Assembly: GCF_009914755.1 (NCBI RefSeq)
Contig: NC_060947.1
From: the human T2T-CHM13v2.0 reference genome, Homo sapiens
Direction: 5' to 3' (one strand)
Length of the DNA stretch: 64,000 nucleotides
The translations under genes were made by a program, and so were the position numbers. Shown here in pieces: positions 7,490 through 19,486 of the stretch (position 1 is its first letter; each line of letters opens with the position of its first letter). The notes under the pieces were generated by a model. The model had not been told where the DNA came from, did not search any database, and worked only from the letters and a program-made list of their open reading frames with translations.

Positions 7490-8300
7490 GCCTCTTGCAA
7501 TCTTATTATATTCGTCACTTCCTTTTCATCACTATTGCCACCTCCCTAGATTAAACCTTCATAATCTCATGCCTAGATTGTTGACACAGCCTCCTACCTA
7601 CCTTTGCAGCCTCTAGCCTACTTAGTCCCCAGTGCACCCCGTCACGTTAATCACCCTAAAGCACTGTTTCTACCTTGTCATTCTCACTGAAAAGCTTTTA
7701 GTGGTTCCTCACTGCCTACCAAATAAAAAATAAAATTCAAATTTCCAAGCCAGGCACTAAAACTCCTCCAAAATCTGGTGCCAGCCCACCTTTCCATGCC
7801 TCATTACCCACACTACCCTTTTATACCCTATGGCCCAGCCATATCCAATATCCTGTGTTCCTTGAACAGCTTATGCACTTTCATGCCCTGTTGCCTTTTT
7901 ACACAATGTCCTCTCAACTTCAAGCATTCTTCCTTTGATTTTTTCCTGATCCAATGTCTACTACTCCCTTCCAAGGCCCAACTCAAACGTCCTAGTCCAT
8001 GAAATCATTTCAGATTCCCCTAGTCAGAATTAATCTCTGTGAAAACATGTGTGACAAGACTTGCTGTCATAGGTGTTCAGTAAACATGACTTCCCATCCC
8101 CCTTCCCCTTTTTACCTGTGTTCCCACAACATATTGCTAATACCTCTGTTTAACACTGATTTCACTTACCTTGTAGTAGAGCTACTTATTTAAACAACCA
8201 ATGAGACTCATCTCATTCATTTTGCATCCTCCACAGCCCCTAACAGAGTTCCTGGTACACAGTAGGTACCAGGAACTTAACAAATATTTATTGAAATGAA
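7490..8300 (+). mobile_element. L2 LINE 3' portion
   Basis: L2-like body (ctcatgcctagattgttg...cctcctacct; tccaaggcccaactcaaa) ending cctggtacacagtagg...aaatatttattgaaatgaa. Confidence 0.7.
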
Positions 8301-9930
8301 ACCTGTGGTGCCAAGTTTCGTTAGTAATTCAGCAGTACCCACTCCTGTTTCCAAACATGAAGTGATATGTTGAGAGAAGAGAATCTGGGAAACCTTGTTG
8401 GAAAATCGCCAACAATTTGCTTCAGAGCAGCCTCAGTAACTTTCAACCTGACAGTTCGCTTGAGGATGATGAGGTATGAGGTAGGAAGGGTGACAACTCA
8501 GATAAGTTTCTTGTCCACGCATTCTTTTTTTTTTTTTTTTTTTTTGAGACGGAGTTTCTCTCTTGTTGCCCAGGCTAGAGTGCAATGGTGCAATCTCAGC
8601 TCACCACAACCTCCACCTCTGGTTCAAGCGATTCTCCTGCCTCAGCCTCCCGAGTAGCTAAAATTACAGGCATGTGCCACCATGCCCAGATAATTTTGTA
8701 TTTTTAGTAGAGATGGGGTTTCTCCATGTTGGTCAGGCTGGTCTCAAACTCTCAACCTCAGGTGATCCACCCTCCTTGGCCTCCCAAAGTGCTGGGATTA
8801 CAAGTGTGAGCCACCAAGCCTGGCCTGTCCATGCTTTATTTATTTATTTATTTATTTATTTATTTATTTATTTTATTTTTATTATTATTTTATTTTTTTG
8901 AGACAGAGTCTCACTCTGTTGTCCAGGCTGGAGTTCAGTGGCATGATCTTGGCTCACTGCAACCTCCATTTCCCATGCTCAGGCAATTCTCCTGCCTCAG
9001 CCTCCCAAGTAGCTGGGATTACAGGCATGTGCCACCAGGCCTGTCTAATTTTTGTGTTTTTAGTAGAGATAGGGTTTCACCTTGTTAGCCAAGCTGGTCT
9101 CGAACTCCTGACCTCAGGTAATCTGCCCGCCTCGGCCTCCCAAAGTGCTGGGATTACAGGCGTGAGCCACCAAGCATGGCCTGTCCATGCATTCTTTAAA
9201 ATCAGCTGAGGTCCAGCCAAGCACGGTGGCTCACGCCTATAATATCAGCACTTTGGGAGGCCAAAGCGGGCGGAACATGATGTCAGGAGATCGAGACCAT
9301 CCTGGCCAACATAATGAAACCCCATCTGTACTAAAAATACAAAAATTAGCTGGGCGTGGTGGTGTGCACCTGTAGTCCCAGCTACTAGGGAGGCTGAGGC
9401 AGAAGAATCGCTTGAACCTGGGAAGCGGAGGTTGCAGTGAGCTGAGATTGTGCCACTGCACTCCAGCCTGGCGACAGAGTAAGACTCCATCTCAAAATAA
9501 ATAGGTAAATAAAATAAAATAAAATCAGCCTTAGGTCAATGTAGGCCCATCATCCCAAGCCAGTGGGTTACAAGTAGCTGGAGAGAGCAGTGACTGGTGC
9601 TAAAGAGGTGAGGAAGTGGAAGCAGAAGCTCTTTGGAGCCATTTGGAAAAAGAGGCTACCACGATCCAGAAGTTAATCTTTCCCTGAAAAGGAATTCTTG
9701 ACCTTGGAAGAGTGGGTAACCATGATGGATGATGCAGGCCAAATAGGTTGGCATGTGTGACACACCTTTATGGTCTCTCCAGGCCATACTGGACACAGCT
9801 TTTATAATAGCTAAGGCTGCTGTGCAGATCATTCCAATTCTGGAAGTGCTGCCTGAAATGTGGCCAAGATAAAAAGATGACTGGATTCTCATGCTGACAG
9901 CTGAAGGACAGCTTGAAGGCCTCAAGTCAT
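8300..9930 (-). mobile_element. Degenerate Gypsy integrase fragments (Mag/K02A2.6-like), split by three Alus
   Basis: Minus-strand translations ETIKVCHTCQ (9748-9777), PFQGKINFWIVVASFSKWL (9636-9692), DDGPTLT (9534-9554), HHPQANCQVE (8442-8471), QHITSCLETGVGTAELL (8322-8372). Confidence 0.85.
8525..9527. mobile_element. Three Alus (two -, one +) inserted in the Gypsy integrase
   Basis: Alu consensus; target duplications tgtccacgc/tgtccatgc and taaaatcagc. Confidence 0.93.
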
Positions 9931-16630: not shown

Positions 16631-18581
16631 GGAGGAGGATCCTACGGGGATCCAGCTAGAAGAGCTTTTCACCCGAGGCGGTCCAGGGTGGCAAAGCCAT
16701 AGAGGAAAACCGTAGTTGTCTATCAAAGGGAAAGGCAAAGATGAAAATAAAAGGGAGACTGGGCATGGTGGCTCATGCCTGTCATCCCCGCACTTTGGGA
16801 AGCCGAGGTGAGATGATTGCTTGAGTCCAGGGATTTGAGACCAGCCTGGGCAACATGGCAAGACCCCCTCTCTACAAAAATAAAAATAAAAAATTAGCTG
16901 GACATAGTGGCATGCACTTGTGGTCCCAGCTACTCAGAAGGCTAAGGTGGGAGGATCGCTTGAGCCTAGGAGGTCAAGGCTGCAGTGAGCTGTATTCAGG
17001 CCACTGCACTCCAGCCGGGGTGACAGAGTGAGATGCCCTCTCCAAAAAAAAAAAAAAAGAAGAAGATGCCCTCTCCAAAAAAAAAAAAAAAAAAAAAGAA
17101 AGAAAGAAAGAAAAAAGAAAAAGAAAAAAAGAAAGAAAAGGAAAGAAAGAAAAGAAAAAAAAGAAAAAGTGGCTCCTGCCTGTAATCCCCAACATTTTGG
17201 GAGGCCAAGGTAGGTGGATGGCTTTGGCTCAGAAGTTTGAGACCAGCCTGGCCAACATGGTGAAACCCCATCTCTACTGAAAATACAAAAATCATCTGAG
17301 TGTGGTGGCACCCACCTGTAGCCCCAGCTACTCAGGAGGCTGAGATGGGAGTGCCGCTGAGATTGGAGTGCCACTGCACTCCAGCCTGGATGACAGAGCA
17401 AGACCCTGTCTCAAAAAGACAAAGAAAAAAAGAAATAGGAAGATAAAATATTTGGCCGGAACACTTGGGAGCAAGATTGTTCTGTTCAGGTGCAAGGCAC
17501 AAATTAAGACCAGGCACACTGGCTCATGCCTGTAATCCCAGCAATTTGGGAAGCAGAGGTGGGAGGCTCACTTGAGCCAAGGAGTTTGAAACCAGCCTGG
17601 CCAGTTTGGGCGACATAGCGAGACCTCATCTTCAAACAAACAAACAAACAAACAAACAAACAAAAAACAGATTGAGGAGAATAGGTTAGTTAGAAGATGA
17701 ATGTAAGGTCCTGAGTCAGGCACCAGAGGGGAGAAAAAAGATGGATGTAAAGAATGAAGGGCGGGGCGCGGTGGCTCACACCTGTAATCCCAACACTTTG
17801 GGAAGTTGAGGTGGGCAGATCACCTGAGCTCAGGAGTTCAAGAGCAGCCTGGCCAACATGGTGAAACCTCGTCTCTACAAAAATTAGCTGGGTGTGATGG
17901 TGGATGCCTGTAATCCCAGCTACTGTGGAGGCTGAGGCAGGAGAATCACTTGAACCTGGGAGGCGGAGGTTGCAGTGAGCCGTGATCATGCCATTGCACT
18001 CCAGCCTGGGTGACAGAGGGAGACTCCATCTCAAAACAAAAAAAAAGAATGAAAATGGGCCGGGCTCAGTGGCTCACGCCTGTAATCTCACCACTTTGGG
18101 AGGCCAAGGCAGGAGGATCACTTGAGCCCAAGGAGTCAAGGCTGCAGTGAGCCATGATTGCTGCACCACTGTACTCCAGCCTGGGTGACAAAATGAGACC
18201 CTGTCTCAAAAACAAAAACAAAAAAGAACGAAGATGTATTAGAGCTCCAGTTGTTTTTTTGGTTTTTTTGGCGGGGGGGGGGTTTTGGTTTTTGGTTTTT
18301 TTTGAGACGGAGTCTTGCTCTGTTGCCAGGCTGGAGTGCAGTGGTGTGATGTCGGCTCACTGCAACCTCTGCCTCCCGGGTTCAAGCGATTCTCCTGCCT
18401 CAGCCTCCTGAGTAGCTGGGACTACAGGCACCCGCCACCACGCCCAGCTAATTTTTGTATCTTTAGTAGAGACAGGGTTTCACCATATTGGCCAGGATGG
18501 TCTCGATCTCTTGACTTTGTAATCCGCCCGTCTTGGCCTCCCAAAGTGCTGGGATTACAGGCGTGAGCCACTGCGCCCGGT

Positions 18582-19486
18582 TTCAACTTTGCTTTTGTTC
18601 TCCACTCCAAACTGTCCTTAGAGCAAATGGCATACGTCTAACTCTCAAGTGAATTGGGGCACTATCTGGTACAATTCTTCAGAAACCTCCTTGGAAAAAT
18701 ACTGATAACTCCCTCTAGTTGGCTTCTTCAAAGAATATGAATTCCTGGGGCATAGATCCATTCATATAATCATGTGGCCTTTTGAAAAGGATTTGTAAAA
18801 AATAATACCAATTATGAATACAGGACCAATTCCATGTTTCCCTTGCACCTCTCGCTGGGAACAGTTTGCATGATCTTCCACAGCCTGAGCTGGCATGGGG
18901 ATTTGGGAAATGTTCTGCAGCTTCTCAGGGTTAGCCATCTCCTTAAGCCTATGGACCCATTTGGGAAGAGTTTTTGCCTGTGTGTCATAAACAATATTTA
19001 TATTGGAAGCTGTCCCTTTGATTTCTGAGTCATACAGCAATGCTGTCTCATTGATCAAAGCCATACAAAATGCCACATTTTGTTAGGTAATGAGGCCCAG
19101 GGATGGGCTGGATGATGGACTCCACATGTGAGGCTGTGCTGCTGCCTGCCATCCCAGAAAGCCTCAAGATTGCCGTTGCTGAGGCAGCTGCCACAACTCC
19201 CTGAAGTAATGAGCAGAGCTCTCACCAGGCTGCCAATTCTGTTTATGAGGCCTAAAGCTCTGAACTATGACAATGTCGGTGGTAAGATGCGCTTTTAAAT
19301 AATGTGATCGGTTTGCTCCATCAACTCTCTTAGTCTTCGGTGGAACAGGAATGAGGAAAGCCCTTGTTTGGGCTGATGTTTGAGCCATGCTGGAGACAGC
19401 AGGCTTGTGTTTAGGGTCTCTTACCTTGTATGTCTCAAGATTTAATGAAGATTTCCTTGAGTGAATCTCAAGACATAAGCAGACTG
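18582..19486 (-). mobile_element. Degenerate Gypsy gag and start of pol (Mag/K02A2.6-like)
   Basis: IVIVQSFRPHKQNWQPGESSAHYFRELWQL (19185-19274), LTCGV (19118-19132), VAFCMALINETA (19041-19076), [18 protein letters not shown] (18616-18669). Confidence 0.8.

What the first reader, a model, noticed from the sequence alone, without database searches (positions are those of the whole stretch)
8300..19486. Hidden ancient Mag/K02A2.6-like Ty3/Gypsy retrotransposon spread over about 11 kb upstream of GJB1
Seen: the short non-Alu islands between 8.3 and 19.5 kb translate on the minus strand, in canonical Gypsy order, to gag (19486-18830), pol start (18670-18600), RT end/connection/RNase H (16630-15060) and integrase (9930-8300). 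Established: the motif style (gag IAERFxFHxRxQxPGES, PxxxxxRxVPxAL, DASxYGVGAVLSH, IDKEAL, TDHKPL, ADALSRLPLP, GPFQGKxFLIVVDxxSKW, TGxSPAELL) is typical of Mag-clade / 'K02A2.6-like' Gypsy elements common in invertebrates, fish and reptiles. Mammals retain Gypsy elements only as old relics or domesticated genes. Inference: a near-complete gag-to-integrase relic of this lineage in a primate genome is unusual, and the ORF track misses it because of frameshifts and Alu insertions. It may be unannotated or only partly covered by MamGyp/MamGypsy2 models. Its readability raises the question of past domestication; the X chromosome hosts many Gypsy-derived genes.
Basis: partly seen in the sequence, partly recalled or inferred. 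Interest (0 to 1): 0.85.

Follow-up and report, generated by a model that had tools for sequence, protein, structure and literature searches.

The report
Decayed Gypsy retrotransposon fossil near GJB1
The non-Alu DNA upstream of human GJB1 holds the badly decayed, Alu-shattered remains of an ancient Gypsy-type retrotransposon (RNase H and integrase still recognisable), a dead fossil rather than a gene, and an ordinary kind of thing for a mammalian genome.

Summary
The core observation holds in part. On the minus strand, non-Alu islands between 16.4 and 8.3 kb carry colinear remnants of a Ty3/Gypsy Pol: the RNase H N-terminal half (16397-16281), a TDHKPL-like site (15852-15829), an integrase zinc-finger zone (about 9926-9748), and the integrase core (9716-9534 and 8474-8411). 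A weak RT N-terminal piece lies at 18678-18598.

A frameshift-aware colinear chain against a profile of 120 K02A2.6-like Pol proteins scores 107.0 bits. That compares with 74.8±4.2 for 150 shuffles (max 86.4) and 74.0±3.7 for 120 real-DNA control sets (max 87.5).

- **Clade:** 8 of 8 K02A2.6-like references give a signal (z 3.1-8.8). None of 9 other Gypsy, retrovirus-like, NYNRIN, RTL1 or ERV references does.
- **Not supported:** "near-complete gag-to-integrase". Gag, protease and the RT core were not found.
- **No LTRs, no paralogues** in the genome by DNA search, and no open frame.
- **No sign of domestication:** a homologous sequence from another source aligns in three different frames.

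Single blocks are weak by standard HMMER and Pfam (E 0.045-1.8). The case rests on order, strand and controls. Whether Dfam already covers the locus could not be checked. Interest is low to moderate.

The parts
16281..16397 (-). RNase H-like domain, N-terminal half, including the DAS-type motif (ADIPLHSVGAG at 16293-16325). tblastn alignments extend to 16448-16269.
   Evidence: Matches profile positions 764-802 over 39 codons at 24.5 bits, reached by 0 of 60 shuffles. Pfam PF17919 RT_RNaseH_2 gives E 0.16 and 12.5 bits, the only Pfam hit among 32 pieces scanned. The sub-profile gives E 0.045 among 3050 ORF pieces. 39 of 120 references give a tblastn HSP here, best E 0.027 at 30% identity over 56 aa.
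16201..16218 (-). IDKGAL, a possible remnant of the RNase H E-K-E-A-L motif, in a different frame from the block above.
   Evidence: Seen in the translation. Its position fits the profile spacing. It was not tested on its own.
15829..15852 (-). TDHKPL-like site (reads THHKPW).
   Evidence: Matches profile positions 852-859 at 14.4 bits, reached by 4 of 60 shuffles. It is colinear with its neighbours but marginal alone. 0 of 120 references give a tblastn HSP.
15186..15218 (-). ADALSR-like site (reads DVDTLSWLPLP).
   Evidence: Best profile match ends at 15195 on profile position 909, at 10.2 bits, reached by 34 of 60 shuffles. It is not significant alone. It is taken up by the order-constrained chain.
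9748..9926 (-). Integrase N-terminal zinc-finger zone (WPHF at 9855-9866, SCVQY at 9786-9800).
   Evidence: 15.9 bits ending at 9748 on profile position 1054, reached by 2 of 60 shuffles. 5 of 120 references give a tblastn HSP. Marginal but colinear.
9534..9716 (-). Integrase catalytic core, first half (PFQGK...FSKW...DDGPT). One reading frame with 2 in-frame stops.
   Evidence: Window 9692-9639 matches profile positions 1085-1101 at 24.0 bits, reached by 0 of 60 shuffles. The sub-profile gives E 0.25. 20 of 120 references give an HSP, best 32% identity over 71 aa at E 0.15-0.16.
8322..8474 (-). Integrase catalytic core, second half (HPQANCQVE at 8442-8468), followed 40 codons later in the same frame by TGVGTAELL (8322-8348). 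One in-frame stop.
   Evidence: Window 8474-8436 matches profile positions 1161-1173 at 23.5 bits, reached by 0 of 60 shuffles. The extension to profile position 1181 ends at 8411. 89 of 120 references give an HSP at 46-69% identity over 13-15 aa. The sub-profile gives only E 1.8.
18598..18678 (-). Possible RT N-terminal piece (MPFALR at 18616-18633), cut off by an Alu.
   Evidence: 17.3 bits ending at 18598 on profile position 507, reached by 2 of 60 shuffles. 4 of 120 references give an HSP at 31-37% identity over 26-27 aa, E 5.9-19. It is colinear with the blocks downstream.
19221..19292 (-). Its identity is unresolved.
   Evidence: Best match is to profile positions 1260-1283, the integrase C-terminal zone, at 22.7 bits. 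That score is reached by 0 of 150 island shuffles and 0 of 500 zone-restricted shuffles (a post hoc test). It is out of Pol order. The profile's gag-like zone scores 8.6 bits, reached by 436 of 500 shuffles.
18885..18935 (-). Short RT thumb/connection-like match (NPEKLQN at 18912-18932), out of order relative to 18678-18598.
   Evidence: Matches profile positions 698-714 at 19.7 bits, reached by 1 of 60 shuffles. 12 of 120 references give an HSP of 14-19 aa. It may be chance.
8521..9525 (.). Cluster of three Alu copies that splits the integrase core. One of ten multi-copy stretches between 8.5 and 20.0 kb.
   Evidence: Self-BLAST depth. Alu HSPs at 8531-8814, 8893-9170 and 9226-9501. The homologous sequence P0001 runs across this point without them.
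13293..13520 (-). High-copy interspersed repeat fragment, not part of the relic. It reads like an L1 3' end, which is my recall.
   Evidence: 3166 first-look candidates in the genome, of which 40 were scored at 74-84% identity.

Best explanation
This is the neutral wreck of one ancient insertion of a Ty3/Gypsy LTR retrotransposon of the K02A2.6-like group, lying on the minus strand.

What can still be recognised:
- The RNase H N-terminal half.
- The integrase zinc-finger zone.
- Both halves of the integrase catalytic core.
- Possibly the start of RT.

What is gone or unrecognisable: gag, protease, the RT core, the integrase C-terminus in its proper place, and both LTRs.

About two dozen Alu copies and at least one other repeat fragment inserted later and stretched roughly 3.4 kb of old DNA over 11 kb. 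The relic encodes nothing and does nothing as a protein.

Shown: the colinear, strand-specific and clade-specific similarity, and the Alu interruptions. Inferred: a single insertion event, great age, and neutral decay.
For: **1. References.** 120 natural K02A2.6-like Pol proteins were retrieved. 16 of the 120 carry that NCBI name.

**2. tblastn of all 120 against the window.** The three fullest 250-bp bins are all on the minus strand and in Pol order:
- bin from 16250: 35 HSPs
- bin from 9500: 21 HSPs
- bin from 8250: 73 HSPs
- fullest bin in the reversed-window control: 13 HSPs

**3. Frameshift-aware colinear chain over the 10 non-Alu islands, against a 1389-position profile.**

| Test | Score (bits) |
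|---|---|
| Real, minus strand | 107.0 |
| 150 dinucleotide shuffles | 74.8±4.2, max 86.4 |
| Plus strand | 74.6 |
| Islands reversed | 81.1 |
| Island order inverted | 87.4 |
| 120 sets of unique non-coding DNA from the same window | 74.0±3.7, max 87.5, 0 of 120 reach it |
| Order-constrained chain, real | 106.1 |
| Order-constrained chain, shuffles | 68.3±5.2, 0 of 100 reach it |

**4. Blocks.** The RNase H block and both integrase-core blocks each beat 60 of 60 shuffles.

**5. Clade specificity, single-reference chains.**
- 8 of 8 K02A2.6-like references give z 3.1-8.75, and each exceeds all 20 shuffles.
- 7 of 7 other Pol-type references (chromodomain Gypsy, a retrovirus-like snake protein, NYNRIN and others) give z -1.6 to 1.1.
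- Human RTL1 gives z -1.2 and one human ERV pol frame gives z -1.4.

**6. Pfam.** The only hit in the region is RT_RNaseH_2, on the ORF where the profile places RNase H.

**7. Sub-profiles.** The three best hits of nine sub-profiles over all 3050 ORF pieces of the window lie in this region on the minus strand.

**8. Continuity across the Alus.** P0001, an ORF call on homologous DNA from another source, runs from window 9940 to 8327 without the three Alus. The two integrase halves were therefore once adjacent.
Against: - **Standard tools give nothing significant for any single block.**
  - Pfam found 0 families in 31 of 32 pieces, and the one hit is far under its cut-off (12.5 against 29.8 bits).
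  - The full-length profile gives E 1.0 and 2.1 for the two best ORFs.
  - The sub-profiles give E 0.045, 0.25 and 1.8, while the reversed window reaches 0.24.
- **Large searches found nothing.**
  - phmmer of the integrase frame against 1.84 billion proteins found nothing at E <= 0.001.
  - The word-indexed search found no Gypsy protein, only P0001.
  - P0001 gives no hit to the profile even at E 1000.
- **More distant relatives are mixed.** Of four from IMG/VR, L055 and L057 exceed all 20 shuffles (z 5.25 and 3.04), L058 does not (z 2.09), and L056 shows nothing (z 0.09).
- **No LTRs** and no signal in the flanks.
- **Out-of-order matches** sit in the upstream island.
- **Custom method.** The scoring scheme is my own, so only the control comparisons carry weight, not the bit values.
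Confidence: 0.85

Rival explanations
1. Motif pareidolia: the similarities are chance matches in AT/GC-ordinary non-coding DNA that a reader looking for Gypsy motifs picked out.
For: - Each block alone is weak: Pfam E 0.16 and sub-profile E 0.045-1.8 against a reversed-window best of 0.24.
- Several listed motifs do not beat shuffles. The ADALSR-like site is reached by 34 of 60 shuffles. The gag zone is reached by 436 of 500.
- The upstream island shows out-of-order hits of similar strength.
Against: - The colinear chain beats 150 of 150 shuffles and 120 of 120 real-DNA control sets by 19 bits or more.
- The signal appears with 8 of 8 K02A2.6-like references and with 0 of 9 other Pol-type references. 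Chance would not be clade-specific.
- Strand and order both matter: the plus strand gives 74.6 bits and inverted island order gives 87.4.
Confidence: 0.03
2. It is a relic of something else that carries RNase H and integrase: an endogenous retrovirus, another Gypsy lineage (Sushi or chromovirus type), or a processed pseudogene of a domesticated gene such as NYNRIN or RTL1.
For: - RT_RNaseH_2 and Integrase_H2C2 profiles also hit thousands of human ERV copies.
- The HPQ.N..E and DNG-type motifs are shared by retroviral integrases (general knowledge).
- Only 9 outgroup references were tried.
Against: - NYNRIN gives z -0.4.
- A retrovirus-like snake protein gives z -1.6.
- Three chromodomain-bearing Gypsy proteins give z 0.1-0.8.
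- Two others give z 0.8 and 1.1.
- RTL1 gives z -1.2 and one ERV pol frame gives z -1.4.
- All 8 K02A2.6-like references score z 3.1-8.75.
Confidence: 0.06
3. The element, or its integrase, served the host for a time (domestication or regulatory exaptation) before decaying, as many X-linked Gypsy-derived genes did.
For: - The integrase blocks at 9866-9540 and 8519-8322 all sit in one phase (coordinate mod 3 = 2) with no frameshift visible between the motifs.
- The locus lies 4-15 kb upstream of GJB1, on the X chromosome.
Against: - There are 3 stops in the 133-codon integrase frame and 2 in the 81-codon frame. My own arithmetic (about 3/64 per codon) gives roughly 6 and 4 stops for random sequence, so these counts are not clearly lower.
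- There is no annotated gene or transcript at 8300-19486 (hub table).
- P0001 aligns to the human DNA in three frames over the same 400 bp, so no frame is conserved.
- Most of Pol is missing.
Confidence: 0.04

Closest known systems
K02A2.6-like Gypsy Gag-Pol/Pol proteins of nematodes, insects, flukes and a snake (NCBI naming; P0043-P0162)
   Same: The domain order is RNase H, then zinc finger, then integrase core. The matched motif sites are DAS-type, TDHKPL-type, the SKW site, DNG-type and HPQ.N..E. This is the only reference group that gives a chain signal (8 of 8).
   Different: The references are intact ORFs of about 1000-1500 aa. The window keeps about 130 weighted codons with stops. It shows about 30% identity over the longer blocks. 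It has no detectable gag, protease or RT core.
Catalogued ancient mammalian Gypsy repeats (MamGyp-int, MamGypLTR1-3, LTR85/88/104, X1_LR-X4_LR; Kojima 2018, PMC5753468, passages read). MamGypsy2 is recalled from Dfam and appears only in the search listing.
   Same: Both are very old, low-copy, non-functional Gypsy fossils in the human genome.
   Different: Whether this locus is a copy of one of those families could not be tested, because no Repbase or Dfam library was available. The four islands searched by DNA have no paralogue in the T2T genome.
Domesticated Gypsy-derived genes (RTL1/PEG11, PEG10 family, NYNRIN)
   Same: They share Gypsy or retroelement ancestry, and several are X-linked.
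   Different: Those keep long open frames: RTL1 has a 1377-codon frame and the NYNRIN exon has 1000 codons. They give no chain signal here: RTL1 z -1.2 and NYNRIN z -0.4. This locus has no open frame.
Human endogenous retroviruses
   Same: Both are LTR elements with RT, RNase H and integrase.
   Different: ERVs are high-copy and far better preserved: 150 of 150 scored PF17919 hits exceed the cut-off. One ERV pol frame and one retrovirus-like protein tested here give no signal.

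Membership tests
Ty3/Gypsy LTR retrotransposon | Pol order RT, then RNase H, then integrase on one strand (integrase last) | tested here: met
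   RNase H (16397-16281) precedes the zinc-finger zone (about 9926-9748), which precedes the integrase core (9716-9534 and 8474-8411), all on the minus strand. The RT N-terminal piece at 18678-18598 is only marginal, reached by 2 of 60 shuffles.
Ty3/Gypsy LTR retrotransposon | Integrase with H2C2 finger and D,D,E catalytic core | tested here: inconclusive
   The core blocks score 24.0 and 23.5 bits, each reached by 0 of 60 shuffles. The DNG-type site reads DDGPT and the E-site reads HPQANCQVE. The zinc-finger zone is marginal (2 of 60). The first catalytic D cannot be assigned, and Pfam rve and Integrase_H2C2 were not hit.
Ty3/Gypsy LTR retrotransposon | RT catalytic core (Y-x-D-D) and aspartic protease | tested here: not met
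   No island beats shuffles for profile positions 341-440 or 561-700. The best values were reached by 10 to 57 of 60 shuffles. These parts are presumably deleted or decayed.
Ty3/Gypsy LTR retrotransposon | gag upstream of pol | tested here: inconclusive
   The profile gag-like zone scores 8.6 bits, reached by 436 of 500 shuffles. The gag parts of four IMG/VR references were reached by 5 to 91 of 100 shuffles. Pfam, the Atlas and PDB gave nothing. Power is low because no vertebrate gag reference was available.
Ty3/Gypsy LTR retrotransposon | Flanking long terminal repeats, target-site duplication, PBS and PPT | tested here: not met
   No direct repeat was found between unique DNA at 5200-8300 and at 18850-22758 beyond one 29-bp match at E 0.003. 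That is expected for very old copies. TSD, PBS and PPT are not testable.
K02A2.6-like group (NCBI name) | Closer to this group than to other Pol-bearing elements | tested here: met
   8 of 8 group members give z 3.1-8.75, while 0 of 9 others exceed z 1.1. Of four more distant IMG/VR relatives, 2 exceed all shuffles. No tree was built.
Mag clade (GyDB sense) | Placement with Mag, SURL and Jule in an RT/IN tree | not testable with these tools
   No GyDB references were held. That K02A2.6-like proteins belong to the Mag clade is recalled and comes from no call. The Jule paper was seen only as a title in a reference list.
MamGyp-int / MamGypsy2 (Repbase, Dfam) | Nucleotide match to the family consensus | not testable with these tools
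   No Dfam or Repbase library was available. The hub's masked-stretch list gives only the 20 longest stretches, and none covers the islands.
Domesticated retroelement gene | Open reading frame kept, and kept in orthologues | tested here: not met
   Every block has stops. The longest non-Alu open frame is about 107 codons. P0001 aligns to the human DNA in three frames. No gene is annotated here (hub table).

The most novel reading that the evidence does not exclude
The locus is an uncatalogued fossil. On this reading no current Dfam or Repbase family covers it. It would then be direct evidence that a K02A2.6-like (Mag-type) Gypsy lineage, otherwise seen here in nematodes, insects, flukes and a snake and, by recall, in fish, once lived in the germline of human ancestors, alongside the Sushi-type lineage that gave the RTL/PEG genes. 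The out-of-order matches in the 18.6-19.5 kb island would be debris of a second or rearranged copy.
Probability: 0.3. Interest if true: 0.45.

Novelty: new member of a known kind. Interest (0 to 1): 0.3.

Why it matters
If it is already in Dfam, it is one more dead Gypsy fragment and matters little. If it is not, it adds a lineage to the list of LTR retrotransposons that once lived in mammalian ancestors. It would also show how Alu-dense regions hide old elements from ORF-based and Pfam-based scans, since only 1 of 32 pieces gave even a sub-threshold Pfam hit. Nothing suggests any bearing on GJB1 function.

Tried and rejected
**Pfam scans**
- Whole-island frames read with X at stops: 0 families in 15 of 15.
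- Shorter pieces: 1 sub-threshold hit in 11 and 0 in 6.

**Large sequence searches**
- phmmer of the integrase frame against 1.84 billion representatives: nothing at E <= 0.001.
- PDB sequence search of the integrase frame and of the 'gag' ORF: only chance hits at E 1.3-1.8.
- ESM Atlas on the 'gag' ORF: no usable hit.

**Pfam families searched over the whole human genome**
- PF17921 and PF17919: swamped by ERVs, NYNRIN and RTL1. All 150 scored hits were over the cut-off, and the window was not among them.
- The snake K02A2.6-like protein against the genome: only matches at 21-27% identity, which I take to be ERV pol (not annotated here), under a stricter first look.

**Search for paralogues of the relic**
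- DNA searches of four islands returned only themselves, plus simple-repeat hits for one.
- The protein search gave 9 weak places, best E 0.013.
- I examined the 4 best (L020-L023). Three had no Pfam family in 9 frames. All 4 had profile scores reached by 4 to 26 of 40 shuffles. I rejected them as chance.

**Other**
- The full-length profile with plain hmmsearch was not significant: E 1.0 and 2.1, and the top hit was an unrelated lysine-rich piece at 42290-42583.
- LTR search: nothing.
- Flanks at 5500-8000 and 19487-23300: nothing.

**Literature**
- 'MamGyp', 'MamGypsy2', 'Gypsy/Mag family/Jule' and 'K02A2.6 + Gypsy' turned up no paper on this locus and none that assigns human Gypsy fossils to a clade.
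- I read passages only of PMC5753468, PMC5381603 and PMC9025612. The rest I saw as listings.

Full report
**Setting.** The window is human T2T chrX:69,626,001-69,690,000. The finding lies 4-15 kb upstream of GJB1, where no gene is annotated (hub table). Self-BLAST shows that about 8.6 kb of 8000-20000 is multi-copy DNA. About 24 Alu-like HSPs of 120 bp or more lie between 8300 and 19700. Ten islands are left: 8000-8520, 9526-10069, 10789-10917, 13293-13520, 13839-14059, 15066-15248, 15796-15899, 16201-16743, 17670-17747 and 18597-19486. Stop-to-stop ORFs show no long non-Alu frame. The longest is about 107 non-Alu codons inside the 131-aa ORF at 19164-19559.

**The observation.**
- MPFALR (18616-18633)
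- ADIPLHSVGAG (16293-16325)
- IDKGAL (16201-16218)
- THHKPW (15826-15843)
- DVDTLSWLPLP (15186-15218)
- PFQGK, FSKW and DDGPT (9692-9540)
- TGVGTAELL (8322-8348)
- QPGES (19218-19232)

This is the third catalytic-motif region of the integrase.

**Standard tools see almost nothing.**
- Pfam gave 0 families for 15 whole-island frames read with X at stops.
- It gave one sub-threshold hit in 11 shorter pieces: PF17919 RT_RNaseH_2 on 16254-16397, E 0.16, 12.5 bits against a cut-off of 29.8.
- It gave 0 in 6 more pieces.
- phmmer of the integrase frame against 1.84 billion proteins found nothing at E <= 0.001.
- PDB and the ESM Atlas gave nothing useful.

**Getting real references.**
- A word-indexed search with the integrase frame found only P0001.
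- The NYNRIN exon, taken from the human genome, served as a query and gave seven diverse Pol-type proteins, P0037-P0043.
- Used as the next query, P0043 gave 1269 proteins at E <= 1e-20. The best 120 were listed. They come from nematodes, insects, flukes and one snake, and 16 are named 'uncharacterized protein K02A2.6-like'.

**Tests against those references.**

1. *tblastn of the 120 against the window.* The fullest 250-bp bins are all on the minus strand and in Pol order: 16250 (35 HSPs), 9500 (21) and 8250 (73). The fullest bin of the reversed window holds 13. At E <= 20, the number of references (of 120) with an HSP at each place is:

| Window place | References with an HSP |
|---|---|
| 8474-8436 | 89 |
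| 16448-16269 | 39 |
| 9716-9534 | 20 |
| 18932-18876 | 12 |
| 19337-19185 | 6 |
| 9869-9733 | 5 |
| 18678-18598 | 4 |
| TDHKPL-like site | 0 |
| ADALSR-like site | 0 |
| 17.7-kb island | 0 |

2. *Colinear chain.* I built a 1389-position profile. I scored it with my own frameshift-tolerant local alignment, island by island, passing only scores from one island to the next so that the order must be colinear.
   - The real chain scores 107.0 bits.
   - 150 dinucleotide shuffles give 74.8±4.2 (max 86.4).
   - The plus strand gives 74.6, reversed islands 81.1, and inverted island order 87.4.
   - 120 sets of same-length pieces of unique non-coding DNA from elsewhere in the window give 74.0±3.7 (max 87.5).

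3. *Traceback.* The blocks that carry weight are:
   - 16397-16281 on profile 764-802
   - 15852-15829 on profile 852-859
   - 9692-9639 on profile 1085-1101
   - 8474-8436 on profile 1161-1173

   The small pieces in 15083-15075, 14036-14004, 13517-13494 and 10876-10859 are at noise level.

4. *Per-block tests.*
   - RNase H scores 24.5 bits and the two integrase-core blocks 24.0 and 23.5. Each is reached by 0 of 60 shuffles.
   - The zinc-finger zone scores 15.9 (2 of 60), RT N-terminal 17.3 (2 of 60) and the TDHKPL-like site 14.4 (4 of 60).
   - The ADALSR-like site scores 10.2 (34 of 60).

5. *Order-constrained chain.* A chain that forces a sensible domain order per island scores 106.1 bits against 68.3±5.2 for shuffles, and 0 of 100 shuffles reach it.

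6. *Plain hmmsearch is much less kind.*
   - The full profile gives E 1.0 and 2.1.
   - Nine sub-profiles over 3050 ORF pieces give E 0.045 (RNase H), 0.25 (integrase core), 0.43 (the 19.2-kb ORF) and 1.8 (second core half).
   - The reversed window reaches 0.24.

   The case therefore rests on order, strand and controls, not on any single block.

**Which kind of element.** Single-reference chains use BLOSUM62 and 20 shuffles each.
- All 8 K02A2.6-like references give z 3.1-8.75 and exceed every shuffle.
- None of the 7 other Pol-type proteins gives a signal (z -1.6 to 1.1). These include three with chromodomains, a retrovirus-like snake protein and NYNRIN.
- Human RTL1 gives z -1.2 and one human ERV pol frame gives z -1.4.
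- Four more distant relatives from IMG/VR (32-39% identical to the snake protein) give z 5.25, 3.04, 2.09 and 0.09. Two of the four exceed all shuffles.
- No tree was built, and 'Mag clade' remains a recalled label.

**What is missing or odd.**
- No island beats shuffles for the protease or RT-core zones.
- The flanks at 5500-8000 and 19487-23300 show nothing.
- No LTR-like direct repeat was found.
- That same stretch does match the integrase C-terminal zone: 22.7 bits, reached by 0 of 500 shuffles in a post hoc test and by 0 of 150 at island level.
- This match lies upstream of everything else and so is out of order. So is an RT-thumb-like match at 18935-18885.
- The gag parts of four IMG/VR elements give nothing. 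One of them carries a GES...Y...L..L type motif, yet its gag part also gives nothing.
- I leave this island unresolved. It may be chance, debris of a second or rearranged copy, or a gag type that my mostly invertebrate references cannot see.
- Island 13293-13520 is a high-copy repeat fragment and not part of the relic.
- Island 13839-14059 has one other weak genomic match.

**Age, copies and selection.**
- The four main islands have no DNA paralogue in the T2T genome. Three return only themselves, and one also returns simple-repeat hits.
- Of the 9 weak protein-level places, I checked the best 4. They proved to be at chance level.
- P0001 is a 236-aa gene call from an unnamed source. It is homologous DNA read as protein.
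  - It covers window 9940-9543 and 8521-8327 with 9 residues between, so it lacks the three Alus at 8531-9501.
  - It aligns to the human DNA in three frames.
  - Over the best 54 columns it is 39 of 54 identical to the human integrase frame. This is my count on the alignment.
  - It has no hit to the profile.
- This shows that the two integrase halves were once contiguous and that no frame is conserved. It does not date the insertion, since the source species is unknown to me.
- The integrase blocks share one phase but carry 3 and 2 stops. By my own arithmetic that is not clearly fewer than random sequence would give.

**Comparison with what is known.** Human Gypsy fossils are catalogued: MamGyp-int, MamGypLTR1-3, LTR85/88/104 and X1_LR-X4_LR (PMC5753468, passages). 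Mammals are said to hold Ty3/Gypsy elements in very low copy number (PMC9025612, passage). I could not test whether this locus belongs to one of those families. My four literature searches found nothing on this locus and nothing on the clade of the human fossils.

**Verdict.** This is a real but heavily decayed K02A2.6-like Gypsy Pol fossil. It is not near-complete and not domesticated. It is a further member of a known kind, with modest interest.

Noticed in passing
window 13293-13520: High-copy interspersed repeat fragment. The genome search gave 3166 first-look candidates, of which 40 were scored at 74-84% identity. It reads like an L1 3' end, which is my recall. My self-BLAST mask missed it because the window holds few copies.
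   Followed up: partly
window 13839-14059, minus strand: Open 73-codon frame with an FDTVD motif reminiscent of LINE reverse transcriptases (recalled). There is one other DNA match in the genome at chrX:111413968-111414052, 76% identity, E 8e-6. Pfam gives nothing.
   Followed up: partly
window about 9940-10030: Simple repeat of (TGAA)n type, read from the repeated MNE* translation. It accounts for all 23 non-self genome hits of the island 9526-10069.
   Followed up: no
P0001 (maps to window 9940-8327): A public protein collection holds a 236-aa 'protein' that is only an ORF call on non-coding DNA homologous to this locus. This is a spurious gene prediction.
   Followed up: yes
window 21534-21561 and 8227-8254: A 29-bp direct match at 90% identity, E 0.003, between unique DNA on either side of the region. 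It is too short to call an LTR remnant.
   Followed up: no
window 15700-15800 and about 12500-12570: (CA)n/(TG)n microsatellites, read from the CVCVCV and THTHTH translations. The first abuts the TDHKPL-like site and may mark where about 35 codons of the element were lost.
   Followed up: no
window 42290-42583, minus strand: A lysine-rich ORF piece that gave the top, non-significant hit (E 0.8) to the lysine-rich zone of the full Pol profile. I took it as a compositional artefact (unchecked).
   Followed up: no
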